A stretch of DNA of 64,000 bases from a virus (IMGVR_UViG_3300033146_002768:34305-98304); one strand, 5' to 3'; positions 10,987-16,818 are shown, numbered from the stretch's first letter. The notes: a model not told the origin generated them from the letters alone. Translations and numbers: made by a program.

Positions 10987-13707
10987 ATGCCAACATTATT
11001 AAATTTTGAAGAATTTTGTGAAGATTTGAAAGAGATAACTACAACCAAGTATCTTAATAAAAAACAATTTCATCCAGAAGGATTGTTTTCAGAACAGATA
11101 TTTGGTCCATCTAAAAACTATACATGCCAGTGTGGAACATATTGGGGAATTTCTGGATCAGGTGGTACTTGTGCAACATGTGAAGTTGATGTTGTAAATA
11201 GCAATGTTAGACGTAAAAGATTTGCTAAGATAATTCTACCAGTTCCAGTTGTTAATCCATTATTCTATGATCTTGTTTGTGATCTTGGCGGACGTCAGGT
11301 CAAAGCTGCTTTAGATCAACTCATGAAAGATGAGAATAGTATAATGATTTTTGATGAAGAAGAGCAAGAATGGCTTGTAGAAAAACAAGATCCAGAGAAT
11401 ATTGATAGAAATGCTTTAGTTGGAACAAATGCAATTCAAGTTTTGATTGAAGATTTGACTGATGCAGTATTAGCAGCAGGTGATACAACTTGGGAAGTTA
11501 TTAAAGATAATATTGATCAATTGATTATAAGTCATGTTGTTGTTCTTCCTCCTGATTTAAGACCAGCTTCTAAAAAGGTTAGTCGAAAAGGTCAGGTATC
11601 ATCTGATAAAATCAATAGATTTTATACTCAGATATTAACAAAGAAAGAAGCATTTGCTGAAACTAATTGTGATGTTAGAGTTGATAGAAATTTATATTAT
11701 AATTACTATCGACAATTACAAAAAGATGTTAATGAACTTTATGCATTTATACTTGAGAAAATGTCAAAAAAAGAAGGATTGATTCGTGGTAATATTCTTG
11801 GTAAGCGAATTGATTTCTCTGGTAGAGCAGTAATTGTTCCTGATCCAACTTTAAATATGGATCAATGTTCATTACCATACTTGATGTTTCTTGAATTATT
11901 TAAGTTGAAAATTGCAAAGAAAATTATTGATCTTGGTAGATTTAAAAAGATTAATAATGCAATTGATTTTATTGATGATTGTATTGAGATTAATAATCCT
12001 GTATTATTTAATACTTGTGAAGAGATTGCTGTAGATGAAGTATGTATTTTAAATCGTCAACCTTCTTTGCATAGATTAAGTTTATTGGGATACAGAACCA
12101 AAGTTTCTTTAGATAAAGTTATTAAGATTCACCCTCTTTCATGTCCTCCATTTAATGCGGATTTTGATGGTGATCAAATGGCTGTATATATTCCAATCAG
12201 TGAAGAAAGTAAACAAGAAGTATTAGATAGATTACTAGTTATTAGAAATCTAACTAACCCTTCAAATGGTAGTTTGTCAACCACACCAAGTCAAGATGTT
12301 ATACTTGGACTATATGCTGTGTCTCATGAAGTATTTGAAGATTTACAGTATGATGTTGAATGTAAAGGTAAAACGATTAAAGCTGATAGAGCTTTATTGA
12401 ATGATTGTTTTCCAGAAGATTATCCAGTTATTGATGAACATGTTGGCGGAAAAAGAATTAAAGAAATTTTAAGTGATATAAATTTCAGATATTCAAATGA
12501 AATAACAGCAGATGTGTTGGATAAGATTAAGTTCCTTGGTTTTAAATACTCCACATTATTTGGAGCAACACTTTCATTAGATGAAATGTTCATAGAAGGT
12601 TGTTATGAAAAACGTGATTCATTATATGCGGGTGAAACAATAATGGAACAGTTAGAGATGGTATCTAATGATGAAACAACTCAATATCTTAGAGATAATT
12701 TTAATTATGCTTATATGGTAGAGTCTGGTGCCAGAGGTAGTTGGGATCAGGTAAGACAGATAGTATTAACTCGAGGTTTCATCTCAAATTTTAGAGGTGA
12801 AATTATTGAAAGACCGATTAAACATAGTTTCATAAATGGTCTTACTCCTCAAGAGTTCTTTGATTCAACTAATGGTAGCCGTAAAGGATTACTTGATGTT
12901 GCATTGAATACTGGTACATCTGGATATCTATCAAGAAAGTTAATCTTTACCTGCGCTAATCTTCAAATTGATAGAACATTTGATGATTGCGGAACAACTG
13001 ATCTTCTTCAAGTATTTGTTGATAATGAGAAGAAAGCTAAAATGTTAATCGGTAAACATTTTATGGAAAGTGGTAATCTTATTAAAATGACTGAGTATAA
13101 CTATCTTGGTTATGTTGGTAAGACAATTGAAATTAGAAGTCCTATATTTTGTAAAAATGATAAGGTTTGTAAAACTTGTTATGGTGAATTACATGAAGTA
13201 ATTGATACTGATTTTATTGGGGTAATTGCAGCTCAGAGTCTTGGGGAATGTAATACTCAGTTGGTATTGAGAACTTTTCATACATCAGGTGTTGCAGTTG
13301 TTGGTAAGAATAATGAAGATGGTTCTAATGATATGAAACAACAGGATATTGTTGCTGATTTATCTACAGTATCAAAACTTCTTCATAAATTTCCAAAAGA
13401 TACAACTCCAGCAGCTTTGGTTGCCAAATTATATACTTGTTATAACAGTAGTAGAACTATTCATCATGTTCATTTTGAATGTGTTGTGTCTCAGTTGATG
13501 TGGTTTGGTACTTCTAAATGGAGATTAGTTGACAATAGAGAGAATGTTGTACCTAAGTACCTTTCTGTTCAAACTGTCCCATCAAATGAAAGTTGGCTAA
13601 TGGGATTAGCATTCTCTAATCCAAAGAAGCATATAATCAAGGGTATTTTAGAATCTGGTTTATATCATGGAGTTATGGATAAAATACTCTGTGGAGAAGA
13701 AGTTTAA
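10987..13707 (+). CDS. rpoC: DNA-directed RNA polymerase beta'-like subunit, compact and unsplit (906 aa)
   Basis: N-terminal Zn ribbon YTCQCG...CATCEV. NRQPSLHRLS. Invariant NADFDGDQMAVYIP catalytic motif. Confidence 0.9.
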   Translation: MPTLLNFEEFCEDLKEITTTKYLNKKQFHPEGLFSEQIFGPSKNYTCQCGTYWGISGSGGTCATCEVDVVNSNVRRKRFAKIILPVPVVNPLFYDLVCDLGGRQVKAALDQLMKDENSIMIFDEEEQEWLVEKQDPENIDRNALVGTNAIQVLIEDLTDAVLAAGDTTWEVIKDNIDQLIISHVVVLPPDLRPASKKVSRKGQVSSDKINRFYTQILTKKEAFAETNCDVRVDRNLYYNYYRQLQKDVNELYAFILEKMSKKEGLIRGNILGKRIDFSGRAVIVPDPTLNMDQCSLPYLMFLELFKLKIAKKIIDLGRFKKINNAIDFIDDCIEINNPVLFNTCEEIAVDEVCILNRQPSLHRLSLLGYRTKVSLDKVIKIHPLSCPPFNADFDGDQMAVYIPISEESKQEVLDRLLVIRNLTNPSNGSLSTTPSQDVILGLYAVSHEVFEDLQYDVECKGKTIKADRALLNDCFPEDYPVIDEHVGGKRIKEILSDINFRYSNEITADVLDKIKFLGFKYSTLFGATLSLDEMFIEGCYEKRDSLYAGETIMEQLEMVSNDETTQYLRDNFNYAYMVESGARGSWDQVRQIVLTRGFISNFRGEIIERPIKHSFINGLTPQEFFDSTNGSRKGLLDVALNTGTSGYLSRKLIFTCANLQIDRTFDDCGTTDLLQVFVDNEKKAKMLIGKHFMESGNLIKMTEYNYLGYVGKTIEIRSPIFCKNDKVCKTCYGELHEVIDTDFIGVIAAQSLGECNTQLVLRTFHTSGVAVVGKNNEDGSNDMKQQDIVADLSTVSKLLHKFPKDTTPAALVAKLYTCYNSSRTIHHVHFECVVSQLMWFGTSKWRLVDNRENVVPKYLSVQTVPSNESWLMGLAFSNPKKHIIKGILESGLYHGVMDKILCGEEV

Positions 13708-13731
13708 ACGTAAATAATAGGAGAAAGAATT

Positions 13732-16700: not shown

Positions 16701-16818
16701 ATTAGATTCTAATTTGGGTAAGGTTGATGATGAAGCTGAAGAAGATTCTATTGTTCCAGAATCAGTTAAACTATTACATGCAAATTTAATTGCATTAGGA
16801 TTAAAAAGAGAGGATTAA
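13732..16818 (+). CDS. rpoB: DNA-directed RNA polymerase beta-like subunit, compact (1028 aa), TTG start
   Basis: LVGPGGFNRQN...GRLCPVDTPD, GYNYEDGIIISERL, NRHGNKGVIS, MPMLPDGRHADIIVNPLG, GGQRCGEMETAALIGHGA. All are canonical beta motifs. Confidence 0.9.
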   Translation: MTIENPIYKVGDERNHIFSIRQQEYAALLENVRQILIPAEELGFDLVEYRLKEPRFSNGEICKTIKKNLIIRFQKGTSKIDLSMQVPTLINDNYIVINGRQKIPLFQLFDIPIVTRGKSIKIRTNVATLMIFPQKEAPYIYISILGRKVPLHLIMFGYYGIEEMNERFGLSDMADAPMVDNLDPKDPRLLYTKLIYDLKMFYDDSRGITQDDIIKEIGRNYSQYNAKSKGEDIIYAIDLILKVDPISAEFFETGNLLDEIVKTLDDGYLDDTLLTNKRIRCFEYVVLAKISKAVFDMCMSNRTARQPKFNVNSTMILSECNVSDIVQFDFAINPIDELTKLSRTSLVGPGGFNRQNVPEHLRDIMPSMFGRLCPVDTPDRDNCGVLQNLIPNVPLDDNGRFNEYYLEKQPISIPVSLVPFLEHDDQTRLQMASSQMRQAIMLQNFDQPMIKSGCESLYTKYTQFVKIAKKSGKVIHLDSNYIIALYDDKTIDIFDVTYRKIYISNLDVFNVYVKHGDKFNAGDILAESNFCKDGSINIGKNLLTAVMVYYGYNYEDGIIISERLQKEGVFTSVHFEDMSFDIPMSKVLLTLDDKGSYMPIPKVGDRIAKGQPYAIMKEFPNQQMDFFDIFKEEQKKLSKQNVIITEVNLYVNQWCTDIPQYNDWVEKIIKEQQDEELKIKIIIEENLEKDKVKNFIKQNNLDLFDNVGKFKMKGEEIPGIRVEMFGIFFRPIQIGDKIGNRHGNKGVISNIIPHEKMPMLPDGRHADIIVNPLGTISRMNVGQLFEYHMGMSLYDLKVHMKKIIKKEDESVKAHSLSENQIQLLVKEYVIGYINIIDNSDDKWYLEQFEEQLPDVIDEKWIEELSIIQPPFESVNMIKIREALSYTGTQFKYDIFDPQSDKMIQQQIACGYGYFFKMVHISETRLAARGIGSYARKTLQPLAGRKNKGGQRCGEMETAALIGHGAVVNLREFLTTKSDCIDLKNRYIRDQLDSNLGKVDDEAEEDSIVPESVKLLHANLIALGLKRED

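What the first reader, a model, noticed from the sequence alone, without database searches (positions are those of the whole stretch)
10987..16818. Compact, unsplit phage multisubunit RNAP beta' then beta, in reversed order and fused to the Ubl operon
Both subunits have all catalytic signatures (NADFDGD, GPGG, NRHGNKG, GEME). They are only 906 and 1028 aa, against about 1400 and 1340 aa in bacteria. They are not split into halves as in the phiKZ and AR9 groups. The order is rpoC-like before rpoB-like, the reverse of the bacterial order. The beta gene starts with TTG. No sigma, alpha or omega homologue is recognisable nearby. The proteins at 8752, 10634 and 18624 are candidates for specificity factors.
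Basis: partly seen in the sequence, partly recalled or inferred. Interest (0 to 1): 0.7.

Follow-up and report, generated by a model that had tools for sequence, protein, structure and literature searches.

The report
Compact phage RNA polymerase, known clade
The two genes really do encode an unusually small, unsplit, bacterial-type RNA polymerase of a large tailed phage, but this polymerase lineage was already described in 2020 (the "mReC" phages), so the window adds a new member, not a new kind.

Summary
10987-13707 encodes a 906-aa beta' and 13732-16818 a 1028-aa beta. All catalytic motifs are present, the order is beta' then beta, and the beta gene has a genuine TTG start.

These are properties of a clade, not artefacts. 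All 80 related IMG/VR loci examined show the same lengths, order and strand.

The lineage is already published. Five of those related loci are the contigs used to define the multimeric-RNAP-encoding Caudovirales (mReC, Weinheimer & Aylward 2020), and the definition itself requires unsplit subunits of at least 800 aa.

The window holds the smaller of two paralogous polymerase sets ("b"). At least 21 related contigs also carry a larger set "a" (beta' about 1004 aa, beta about 1366 aa) 30-40 kb upstream, including the closest long relative. In this genome set a would lie outside the window.

No sigma, alpha or omega was found in the window. Of the three proposed specificity factors:
- 8752 is not conserved.
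- 18624 has a confident, non-sigma fold.
- Only the small gene at 10634, translationally coupled to beta', stays a candidate.

The gene just upstream (10168) is a UBC-like E2, the last gene of a Ubl module that precedes beta' in 56 of 57 loci.

I infer, but have not shown, that set b is the non-virion enzyme.

The parts
10634..10984 (+). Small conserved helical protein (116 aa). Its stop codon lies 2 nt before the beta' ATG. It is a candidate small RNAP-associated subunit, or the last gene of the Ubl module. Function unknown.
   Evidence: A profile search finds homologues immediately upstream of beta' in 67 related loci. AAGGAG lies 7 nt before the ATG, and the stop-start gap to beta' is 2 nt. 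There is no consistent Pfam, PHROG or PDB match. The 17 representative homologues are 35-155 aa and none is fused to an RNAP.
10987..13707 (+). RNAP beta' subunit, 906 aa, unsplit, of the smaller mReC 'set b'.
   Evidence: Pfam Rpb1 domains 1-5. 56-83% identity to more than 120 metagenomic proteins of 885-914 aa. Best PDB sequence hits are bacterial beta' at E 1e-101. The AF2 model has pLDDT 76.5, and the top Foldseek hits are all bacterial beta' at E about 1e-42.
11125..11184 (+). N-terminal zinc finger of beta' (C47, C49, C62, C65).
   Evidence: All four Cys are invariant in alignment A5. The segment aligns to the bacterial beta' zinc-finger segment. Positions.
12154..12174 (+). Mg2+-binding active-site motif NADFDGD (beta' aa 390-396).
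   Evidence: Seen in the translation. Invariant in A5. Aligns to E. coli NADFDGD.
12874..12942 (+). Bridge helix (beta' aa 630-652, GSRKGLLDVALNTGTSGYLSRKL).
   Evidence: Aligns to the E. coli [23 protein letters not shown] segment. The AF2 model has one long helix at 621-656.
12982..13185 (+). Second zinc site of beta' (C668, C722, C728, C731).
   Evidence: All four Cys are invariant in A5. They are colinear with the bacterial CGT...C..C.C.CYG segment.
13228..13386 (+). Trigger loop: N-helix aa 748-768, a short unstructured tip, then C-helix aa 786-800. There is no SI3-type insertion.
   Evidence: AAQSLGECNTQLVLRTFHTSG aligns to E. coli [21 protein letters not shown]. AF2 gives helices 744-762 and 789-800 with only a low-confidence loop between them. 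The C-helix pairing with E. coli 1132-1146 is colinear but not significant on its own.
13719..13723 (+). Shine-Dalgarno AGGAG, 8 nt upstream of the TTG start of the beta gene.
   Evidence: Read directly from the sequence.
13732..16818 (+). RNAP beta subunit, 1028 aa, unsplit, TTG start, of mReC 'set b'.
   Evidence: Pfam Rpb2 domains 3, 6 and 7. It directly follows beta' on the same strand in 80 of 80 related loci, at 996-1067 aa. PDB hits are bacterial beta at E 7e-86. A 665-aa phage-type chain, 7s00_C, matches at only 2e-22.
14704..14784 (+). Rifampicin-pocket and fork segment ending in GPGG (beta aa 325-351). The positions equivalent to E. coli D516 and H526 are F and K.
   Evidence: Residue-by-residue alignment to bacterial beta. 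The E. coli numbering of the Rif positions is from my own knowledge, and predicted Rif insensitivity is an inference.
15949..15969 (+). NRHGNKG motif of the beta double-psi beta-barrel (aa 740-746).
16588..16599 (+). GEME motif of beta (aa 953-956).
10168..10650 (+). UBC-like E2, the last recognisable gene of the Ubl module. It is not an RNAP factor.
   Evidence: Found in 70 related loci. The consensus is GxHPNxDPxTxxFCLP...NLDxCYFxPW, with invariant H62, N64 and C85. Reading HPN plus a catalytic Cys as the UBC signature is from my own knowledge.
3303..10159 (+). Linked upstream Ubl-conjugation module (context, not part of the polymerase). In order: 858-aa E2-like protein, JAB, ThiF-like, Ubl/beta-grasp protein, variable ORF 8752, second ThiF-like.
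   Evidence: Pfam hits. The E2-like, JAB, ThiF and Ubl genes each lie upstream of beta' in 56 of 57 loci, and the second ThiF in 57 of 57.
30866..30890 (+). 25-nt AT-rich element TATATATTAATATACATAACATAAC, a candidate phage promoter or operator of the (TA)n class.
   Evidence: It is identical at L292 5783-5807, upstream of the set-a RNAP operon of the closest long relative. The motif class is enriched in intergenic DNA.
35922..35932 (+). TTAATATATAT site 56 nt upstream of terL.
53386..53465 (-). Two TTAATATATAT sites upstream of the tail-tube-like gene 52540-53268.
57774..57784 (-). TTAATATATAT site upstream of the virion-structural gene 57012-57689.

Best explanation
The two genes encode the catalytic beta' and beta subunits of the smaller ('set b') of two paralogous bacterial-type RNA polymerases carried by mReC phages. 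These are T4-like contractile-tailed phages with genomes of roughly 150-300 kb.

The enzyme keeps every element needed for catalysis:
- both zinc sites
- the clamp coiled-coil
- NADFDGD
- the bridge helix
- a simple trigger loop
- the beta fork, GPGG and barrel motifs

It lacks the bacterial lineage-specific insertions (SI3 for certain), most of the beta' region after the trigger loop (jaw), and about 50 + 50 residues of the clamp and dock regions.

It sits in a long co-directional operon directly behind a ubiquitin-like conjugation module, and it is translationally coupled to a conserved 116-aa protein.

Shown: identity, integrity, clade membership, conserved architecture, and the presence of a second set in relatives.

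Inferred by analogy with phiKZ and AR9:
- The enzyme works without alpha and omega.
- It uses a phage-encoded, non-sigma70 specificity factor that is not yet identified.
- It is the non-virion polymerase, made from an early or middle operon, and it transcribes later genes.
- The larger set a, which lies behind (TA)n-type promoter-like sites next to baseplate genes, is made late and may be packaged.
For: Identity and integrity.

Clade-wide architecture: 299 IMG/VR stretches encode a relative. All of the best 80 have beta' of 882-931 aa followed by beta of 996-1067 aa on the same strand.

mReC membership: L007, L008, L011, L012 and L013 are contigs listed in the supplementary data of PMC7481178, with matching lengths and 59-67% identity to the window's beta'. 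Bacterial beta' is at most 31% identical.

Phage context: TerL PF03237, tail sheath, and baseplate wedge and hub.

Two sets:
- The supplement labels sets a and b.
- Set a was found directly in L208, with beta' 1004 aa followed by beta 1366 aa, confirmed by Pfam.
- At least 21 contigs carry both sets, with set a 30-40 kb upstream of set b. This includes the closest long relative, contig 3300035390_000014.

Temporal inference:
- (TA)n sites occur within 5 kb upstream of beta'(a) in 36 of 37 loci, against 26 of 62 for beta'(b).
- The same motif class precedes terL and tail genes in the window.
- Set a lies next to Phage_base_V and an amidase.
- Set b lies among Ubl, folE2, kinase and RtcB genes.

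Lack of alpha and omega in characterised phage multisubunit RNAPs: PMC7598289.
Against: - No expression, proteomic or biochemical data exist for any mReC polymerase, so the virion versus non-virion assignment rests on gene neighbourhood and one motif.
- In phiKZ-like phages the AT-rich motif that can be found computationally marks early promoters read by the virion enzyme. In T4 a similar TATAAATA is read by host core plus gp55. The motif therefore does not say which polymerase reads it.
- 26 of 62 set-b loci also have at least one such site within 5 kb.
- Only 64 kb of a 207-kb contig is visible. Alpha, omega or sigma homologues, and set a itself, could not be checked in this genome.
- The beta' C-terminal mapping (loss of the jaw) rests on colinear but individually non-significant alignments and on a medium-confidence model.
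Confidence: 0.85

Rival explanations
1. Reverse assignment. Set b, the window's enzyme, is the virion-packaged polymerase that is injected to start infection. Set a is the polymerase made after infection.
For: Nothing in the sequence fixes the roles. In phiKZ-like phages conserved AT-rich motifs mark early promoters. If the (TA)n sites are early promoters, the set-a operon would be early. A smaller enzyme would also be easier to package and eject.
Against: The (TA)n sites in the window precede terL, tail-tube-like, baseplate and virion-structural genes. In tailed phages these are late functions. Set b is embedded among metabolic, RNA-repair and Ubl genes, with no structural gene within 14 kb downstream.
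Confidence: 0.25
2. Hybrid enzyme. The phage beta' and beta borrow host subunits (alpha dimer, omega and/or a host sigma factor), so no phage specificity factor exists.
For: The architecture is bacterial-type. The top sequence and fold matches are bacterial beta and beta'. The clamp coiled-coil, which is the main sigma docking site in bacteria, is retained as helices 208-225 and 234-262. No phage sigma-like protein was found.
Against: Identity to bacterial subunits is only 27-31%. Characterised phage multisubunit RNAPs work without alpha and omega and use an unrelated fifth subunit. Two deeply diverged paralogous sets, 27-31% identical to each other, are hard to reconcile with both fitting the same host partners.
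Confidence: 0.15
3. Cellular contamination, or a recently captured host rpoBC operon.
For: The best PDB and annotated-record hits are bacterial.
Against: - The gene order is the reverse of rpoB-rpoC.
- Identity to any bacterial beta' is at most 31%.
- The same genes occur in hundreds of IMG/VR viral contigs in fixed synteny with phage genes.
- GC content is a uniform 27-35% across the window.
- TerL, sheath and baseplate genes lie on the same contig.
Confidence: 0.01
4. Assembly or frameshift artefact, or decaying pseudogenes, which would make the genes only look short.
For: None beyond the unusual length.
Against: Both ORFs are uninterrupted. The lengths are conserved in 80 independent loci at 53-85% identity. 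The catalytic residues are invariant.
Confidence: 0.01

Closest known systems
mReC: multimeric-RNAP-encoding Caudovirales (Weinheimer & Aylward 2020, Nat Commun 11:4506, PMC7481178)
   Same: This is the same lineage. Five of my related loci are the paper's own contigs. Shared features:
- unsplit beta and beta' of at least 800 aa with NADxDGD
- T4-type TerL (PF03237)
- contractile-tail and baseplate genes
- subunit lengths of about 900 and about 1010 aa, equal to the paper's set 'b'
   Different: The window's proteins are new sequences, at most 83% identical to anything found.

The held text of the paper contains no occurrence of 'order', 'synteny', 'split', 'sigma' or 'ubiquitin', and does not mention two RNAP sets per genome. 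So it does not treat:
- gene order
- the TTG start
- which domains are missing
- the Ubl linkage
- promoters
- the meaning of the two sets per genome, which appear only as _a_/_b_ labels in a supplementary table
phiKZ/AR9-type jumbo-phage multisubunit RNAPs (virion and non-virion sets; review PMC7598289)
   Same: Both are phage-encoded relatives of bacterial beta and beta'. Relatives of the window carry two paralogous sets per genome. No alpha or omega is recognisable. No sigma70-family factor is present.
   Different: - Those enzymes are split into 4-5 polypeptides and are far more divergent. The phage-type chain 7s00_C matches the window's beta at only E 2e-22, against 1e-86 for bacterial beta.
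- No gp68/gp226-like protein was recognised here.
- Set a of the closest relative does have a split beta' (780 + 239 aa), so splitting also occurs in this clade.
Bacterial RNAP core (rpoB-rpoC operon)
   Same: All conserved regions and catalytic motifs are shared. The best sequence and fold matches are bacterial.
   Different: - The gene order is reversed.
- beta' is about 22% shorter than the shortest full-length bacterial beta' among the PDB hits (1161 aa).
- beta is slightly shorter than the shortest beta-type chains (1070-1119 aa).
- There is no SI3. The jaw and C-terminal tail are reduced.
- No alpha, omega or sigma gene is nearby.
Cultured phages with long RNAP subunit genes (Yersinia phage YerA41, Rhizobium phage RHph_Y65)
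   Same: YerA41 also has beta' genes before a single 924-aa beta gene. RHph_Y65 has an unsplit 1127-aa beta'.
   Different: Identity is only 25-28%. YerA41 beta' is split into 556 + 518 aa. RHph_Y65 has no adjacent beta. Neither has a Ubl module next to the polymerase.

Membership tests
mReC (Weinheimer & Aylward 2020) | Both beta and beta' are encoded as single ORFs of at least 800 aa, each with a stop codon. | tested here: met
   906 aa and 1028 aa. The criterion is quoted from the paper's Methods.
mReC (Weinheimer & Aylward 2020) | An NADxDGD motif in the beta' homologue. | tested here: met
   NADFDGD at aa 390-396.
mReC (Weinheimer & Aylward 2020) | RNAP sequences group with mReC sequences, apart from cellular and giant-virus homologues. 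| tested here: met
   59-67% identity to beta' of published mReC contigs (L007, L008, L011-L013), against at most 31% to bacterial beta'. No tree was built, so this rests on identity and shared synteny.
mReC (Weinheimer & Aylward 2020) | Tailed-phage marker genes on the same contig, including a TerL of Pfam PF03237. | tested here: met
   TerL PF03237 at 35988-37625 and tail sheath at 54906-56888. Baseplate wedge and hub.
mReC (Weinheimer & Aylward 2020) | A gp23-type major capsid protein (PF07068 / VOG11186). | tested here: inconclusive
   No capsid family was recognised in the window by Pfam or PHROGs. The gene may lie outside the 64 kb. Only 8 of the paper's 97 contigs had one.
phiKZ/AR9-type jumbo-phage RNAP | The beta and beta' equivalents are each split into two or more polypeptides. 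| tested here: not met
   Both are single ORFs here and in 80 of 80 relatives.
phiKZ/AR9-type jumbo-phage RNAP | Two RNAP sets per genome, one packaged in the virion. | tested here: inconclusive
   Two sets are present in at least 21 related contigs. The second set is not in this window, and packaging cannot be tested by sequence.
phiKZ/AR9-type jumbo-phage RNAP | A gp68/gp226-like fifth, promoter-specificity subunit. | tested here: not met
   No PHROG or Pfam hit in the window. The ORF18624 model has no match to any RNAP factor in the PDB. Such proteins diverge fast, so absence of evidence is weak.
Bacterial RNAP core operon | The order rpoB then rpoC, with alpha, omega and sigma encoded by the genome. 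| tested here: not met
   The order is reversed. No alpha, omega or sigma domain was found in the window.
Sigma-70 family (for the proposed factors 8752, 10634 and 18624) | All-helical sigma2 and sigma4 domains detectable by profile or by fold. | tested here: not met

The most novel reading that the evidence does not exclude
The conserved physical coupling is functional. In 56 of 57 loci a complete phage Ubl-conjugation module (two E1-like proteins, two E2-like proteins, JAB, Ubl) is followed by the small 10634 protein and then by beta' and beta. One possibility is that the phage tags its own minimal, alpha/omega-less polymerase, or the host polymerase, with a ubiquitin-like protein. This could serve to assemble the polymerase, to switch its activity or to take over the host. 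In that case the 116-aa protein would be a new small polymerase subunit or adaptor.
Probability: 0.12. Interest if true: 0.8.

Novelty: new member of a known kind. Interest (0 to 1): 0.32.

Why it matters
The finding as stated, a compact and unsplit phage multisubunit RNAP, has been in the literature since 2020. It is abundant in public viral metagenomes: 299 IMG/VR stretches matched in a single scan. The window therefore mainly adds one more divergent member.

Value remains because no mReC polymerase has been studied biochemically. A two-gene, bacterial-type core of 906 + 1028 aa is among the smallest such enzymes. It should be a tractable model for asking what the minimal assembly and initiation requirements of a cellular-type RNAP are.

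Three points came out of this check:
- Two deeply diverged sets per genome at a fixed spacing.
- Near-universal linkage of set b to a Ubl-conjugation module and to a small coupled gene.
- A (TA)n promoter-like motif shared by the structural genes and the set-a operon.

I did not find these three points discussed in the papers I could read. Each gives a concrete, testable hypothesis.

Tried and rejected
1. Near-identical DNA in deposited phages: none found. The closest cultured phages are only 25-28% identical in protein.
2. Second RNAP set in the window or within 10 kb either side in 80 loci: none. It lies 30-40 kb away in relatives.
3. Reaching beyond the window's left edge with the look-up of encoding contigs: the window's proteins are not on record.
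4. ORF18624 as a sigma-like factor: rejected on fold. Some homologues are fused to a VWA domain, which is unexplained.
5. ORF 10168 as an RNAP factor: rejected. It is a UBC-like E2.
6. ORF 8752 as a factor: rejected for lack of conservation.
7. The 10634 protein as omega, or fused to an RNAP somewhere: no support.
8. Sigma-70-type promoter and terminator scans over 1-20 kb: no more sites than in shuffled sequence (121 against 120; 5 against 5.1).
9. tRNA and Rfam scans of the window: nothing found.
10. Global hmmalign mapping to E. coli: unreliable after the trigger loop and in the beta N-terminus. It was replaced by local searches, which leave the jaw and flap-tip statements as inferences.
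11. A weak PHROG 'antitermination Q-like' hit to the zinc-ribbon paralogues at 21586-22120: no individually significant stretch, so I did not rely on it.

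
Full report
**1. The observation**

The window has two adjacent plus-strand ORFs. One runs 10987-13707 (906 aa, ATG) and the other 13732-16818 (1028 aa, first possible start TTG).

Their translations contain the cited motifs:
- NADFDGD at beta' aa 390-396
- GPGG at beta aa 348-351
- NRHGNKG at beta aa 740-746
- GEME at beta aa 953-956

Pfam assigns Rpb1 domains 1-5 to the first ORF (best E 2e-32). It assigns Rpb2 domains 3, 6 and 7 to the second (best E 8.5e-50).

E. 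coli rpoB (1342 aa) precedes rpoC (1407 aa). The size and order contrasts are therefore real.

The TTG start is credible for three reasons:
- AGGAG lies 8 nt upstream.
- Similarity to relatives begins at residue 1.
- The homologous start codon is TTG in most of 80 relatives and ATG in about 17.

**2. These are properties of a clade, not artefacts**

A protein search returned thousands of homologues. The best 120 are 885-914 aa long and 56-83% identical. The window's own protein comes from a 207,111-bp JGI contig.

In IMG/VR, 299 stretches encode a relative. In all of the best 80 loci:
- beta' is 882-931 aa.
- It is followed on the same strand by beta of 996-1067 aa (a 728-aa outlier, L048, appears to be a truncated ORF, since tblastn matched only beta residues 5-710 there).
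- The gap between the two genes is usually -4 to about 230 nt.

Five loci have a larger gap of 0.8-1.1 kb. In the two I examined, the gap holds a homing-endonuclease-like ORF.

The context is phage:
- T4-type TerL (PF03237)
- tail sheath
- gp25-like and T4-type baseplate proteins
- virion structural proteins

GC content is uniform at 27-35% across the window. Contamination and frameshift explanations are excluded.

**3. What it is: a member of the published mReC clade**

Weinheimer & Aylward (2020, PMC7481178) mined metagenomes for phage contigs that encode both beta and beta'. Each had to be at least 800 aa and to carry NADxDGD. They found 97 Caudovirales contigs whose RNAP forms a deep clade of its own.

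Their supplementary tables list five contigs that match, by metagenome ID and contig length, loci I retrieved independently at 59-67% beta' identity:
- WOR52_10000459 (277,131 bp)
- Ga0180432_10000164 (105,615 bp; subunits of 1017 and 903 aa)
- Ga0180433_10000139 (121,292 bp)
- Ga0180434_10000255 (80,832 bp)
- Ga0180432_10000070 (149,482 bp)

These correspond to L011, L013, L008, L007 and L012.

Bacterial beta' is at most 31% identical. The review of jumbo-phage RNAPs also notes this separate group.

'Compact, unsplit phage multisubunit RNAP' is therefore a known kind, and the window adds a new member. No close relative exists among deposited phage genomes. The nearest cultured phages are 25-28% identical and are organised differently:
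- YerA41 has beta' split into 556 + 518 aa, followed by a 924-aa beta.
- RHph_Y65 has a lone 1127-aa beta'.

**4. Two polymerase sets per genome**

The paper's supplementary table labels sets '_a_' and '_b_' on the same contigs:
- Set a: beta about 1362-1367 aa, beta' about 1002-1009 aa.
- Set b: beta about 1007-1017 aa, beta' about 900-915 aa.

The paper's main text does not discuss this. The window's genes are set b.

I found set a directly. A DNA-pattern scan for NADFDGD hit a 1007-aa beta' in the same contig as L065.

In L208 (the contig of L012), beta'(a) of 1004 aa is followed immediately by beta(a) of 1366 aa. Both are confirmed by Pfam, and the order is again beta' then beta.

Set a beta' is only 27-31% identical to set b beta'.

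Three further scans showed at least 21 contigs with both sets. In those where I compared coordinates, set a lies about 30-40 kb upstream of set b on the same strand.

This includes contig 3300035390_000014 (202,719 bp), the window's closest long relative (set b 83% identical). There, set a sits at about 43-46 kb and set b at about 3-6 kb.

By synteny, set a of this genome should lie about 25-30 kb to the left of the window. It is not in the window.

In that closest relative, beta'(a) is itself split into 780 + 239 aa, with small ORFs in between.

**5. Domain mapping**

A profile of the clade aligned to E. coli beta' gives these blocks:

| Window beta' (aa) | E. coli beta' (aa) | Content |
|---|---|---|
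| 16-450 | 37-520 | zinc finger, clamp coiled-coil, active site |
| 457-539 | 569-651 | not assigned |
| 553 to about 775 | 702 to about 943 | bridge helix, second zinc site, trigger-loop N-helix |

There is no SI3. The AF2 model (pLDDT 76.5) shows helix 744-762, a 26-residue disordered tip, and then helix 789-800.

After the trigger loop only about 100 residues remain, against about 270 in E. coli. Two further segment pairs are colinear:
- Window 786-811 with E. coli 1132-1156.
- Window 825-838 with E. coli 1248-1261.

Between those pairs the window has 13 residues where E. coli has 91. This implies loss of the jaw. These pairings are weak, however:
- They are not significant by shuffling.
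- The HMM domain E-value is 5e-4.

The top fold matches are all bacterial beta' (E about 1e-42, TMq 0.55-0.58).

For beta:
- Residues 256-586 and 714-1023 align to bacterial beta.
- The N-terminal 255 residues align only at the conserved INGxxR motif (window 84-111 with E. coli 126-153; weak, E 0.055).
- This leaves room for the lobes but not for SI1.
- The flap and SI2 region is about 80 residues shorter.

At 1028 aa, beta is only slightly below the shortest beta-type chains among the PDB hits (1070-1119 aa). At 906 aa, beta' is about 22% below the shortest full-length bacterial beta' (1161 aa).

In the rifampicin pocket, the positions equivalent to E. coli D516 and H526 are F and K (alignment; numbering from my own knowledge). 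I infer insensitivity to rifampicin.

**6. Neighbours and proposed specificity factors**

Upstream lies a complete Ubl-conjugation module:
- an 858-aa E2-like protein
- JAB
- a ThiF-like protein
- a beta-grasp protein with SAP, ThiS and TGS hits
- a second ThiF-like protein

The E2-like, JAB, ThiF and Ubl genes each lie upstream of beta' in 56 of 57 loci that have enough flank. The second ThiF does so in 57 of 57.

The three candidates and the intervening gene:
- **ORF 10168-10650** is found in 70 loci. It carries an HPN...Cys signature with invariant H62, N64 and C85. That marks it as a UBC-like E2, which belongs to the Ubl module and not to the polymerase.
- **ORF 8752** is found in 4 of 57 loci, so it is not a conserved partner.
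- **ORF 10634-10984** is conserved in 67 loci by profile search. It always ends at the beta' start, has its own RBS, and leaves a 2-nt gap. It has no recognisable family, no omega-like or sigma-like match, and no fusion to an RNAP. It is the only remaining candidate for a small polymerase-associated protein, but it could equally be the last Ubl-module gene.

No sigma, alpha, omega or gp55-type family was found anywhere in the window.

**7. A promoter-like motif and a working model**

The window is tightly packed. Apart from Shine-Dalgarno sequences, the only words enriched in intergenic DNA are (TA)n words: ATATATA, TTAATATA and ATATATAT. For ATATATAT, 8 of the 16 occurrences counted over both strands fall in intergenic DNA, about 4% of the sequence.

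Exact TTAATATATAT sites lie upstream of:
- terL (35922)
- a tail-tube-like gene (53386 and 53455)
- a virion structural gene (57774)
- the intergenic region before ORF 30915-31277 (30865)

A one-mismatch site (TTAATATATAA) lies at 48919, in the intergenic region upstream of ORF 48391-48903, next to the baseplate genes. None lies in the intergenic DNA of the 2.6-22 kb operon that holds the polymerase.

A 25-nt element at 30866-30890 is identical upstream of the set-a operon in the closest long relative.

Across the clade, such sites occur within 5 kb upstream of beta'(a) in 36 of 37 loci (mean 1.76 sites). In many loci one lies 2.0-2.8 kb upstream, before the gene that heads the operon. For beta'(b) the figure is 26 of 62 loci (mean 0.58).

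Set a also sits next to a baseplate-spike gene and an amidase.

My working model, by analogy with phiKZ and AR9, is this:
- Set a is co-regulated with virion genes and may be packaged.
- Set b is made from an early or middle operon and transcribes later genes.

This is inference. In phiKZ-like phages, visible AT-rich motifs mark early promoters. In T4, a similar late promoter is read by host core plus gp55. Which enzyme reads the motif is therefore open.

**8. Verdict**

The implied novelty is not: this is a new member of the mReC clade.

Three points were not discussed in the papers I could read:
- two deeply diverged sets at a fixed spacing
- the near-universal Ubl linkage, with a small gene coupled to beta'
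- the shared (TA)n motif

They are modest but testable leads.

Noticed in passing
window 3303-10650: A complete ubiquitin-like conjugation module lies directly upstream of the polymerase. It contains an 858-aa E2-like protein, JAB, two ThiF/E1-like proteins, a 319-aa protein with SAP, ThiS and TGS hits, and a UBC-like E2 with HPN...Cys. It is conserved upstream of beta' in 56 of 57 related loci.
   Followed up: partly
related loci L208 7998-15115 and L292 8001-16896 (not in the window): mReC phages carry a second, larger RNAP set (beta' about 1004 aa, beta about 1366 aa) 30-40 kb upstream of the window-type set. In the window's closest long relative, beta' of that set is split into 780 + 239 aa, with small ORFs inserted between the parts.
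   Followed up: yes
window 30866-30890, 35922-35932, 48919-48929, 53386-53465, 57774-57784: (TA)n-type sites such as TTAATATATAT are concentrated in intergenic DNA before structural genes. One 25-nt element is identical in a relative, ahead of its second RNAP operon. These are candidate phage promoters or operators.
   Followed up: partly
window 27146-31277: A family of six or seven small paralogous proteins shares an N-terminal K-x-DF(I/V)TNSSS motif. The only database match is one PHROG of unknown function.
   Followed up: no
window 21586-22382: Three tandem zinc-ribbon paralogues share CxxC...GEGELDWVENVVGK. They give only a weak PHROG match to an antitermination Q-like family, which is not individually significant.
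   Followed up: no
window 16819-17280, 17520-18365, 23864-24997; also 413-1561, 26049-27092, 60997-61761: A polynucleotide-kinase-like protein and RtcB suggest RNA repair. FolE2 and three radical-SAM proteins suggest 7-deazaguanine-type nucleotide chemistry. The kinase is found only in the closest relatives, whereas folE2 follows beta in 68 of 74 loci.
   Followed up: no
window 18624-19775: A clade-restricted 383-aa protein has a confident predicted fold with no PDB match. Some homologues are about 590 aa and carry a VWA domain.
   Followed up: partly
window about 8709-8736: A strong hairpin (AAGGGGTG, 10 nt, CACCCCTT) lies between the Ubl gene and ORF 8752. No T-tract follows it. It may be an RNA processing or attenuation site inside the operon.
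   Followed up: no
window 35532-35987: A 456-nt ORF-free spacer lies before terL. It has no tRNA or Rfam match.
   Followed up: no
L001 4793-5575; L077 12721-13893: In some relatives, free-standing homing-endonuclease-like genes (HNH-like and NUMOD-like) are inserted exactly between beta' and beta. The window's left edge (32-376) also holds a NUMOD3 homing-endonuclease fragment.
   Followed up: partly
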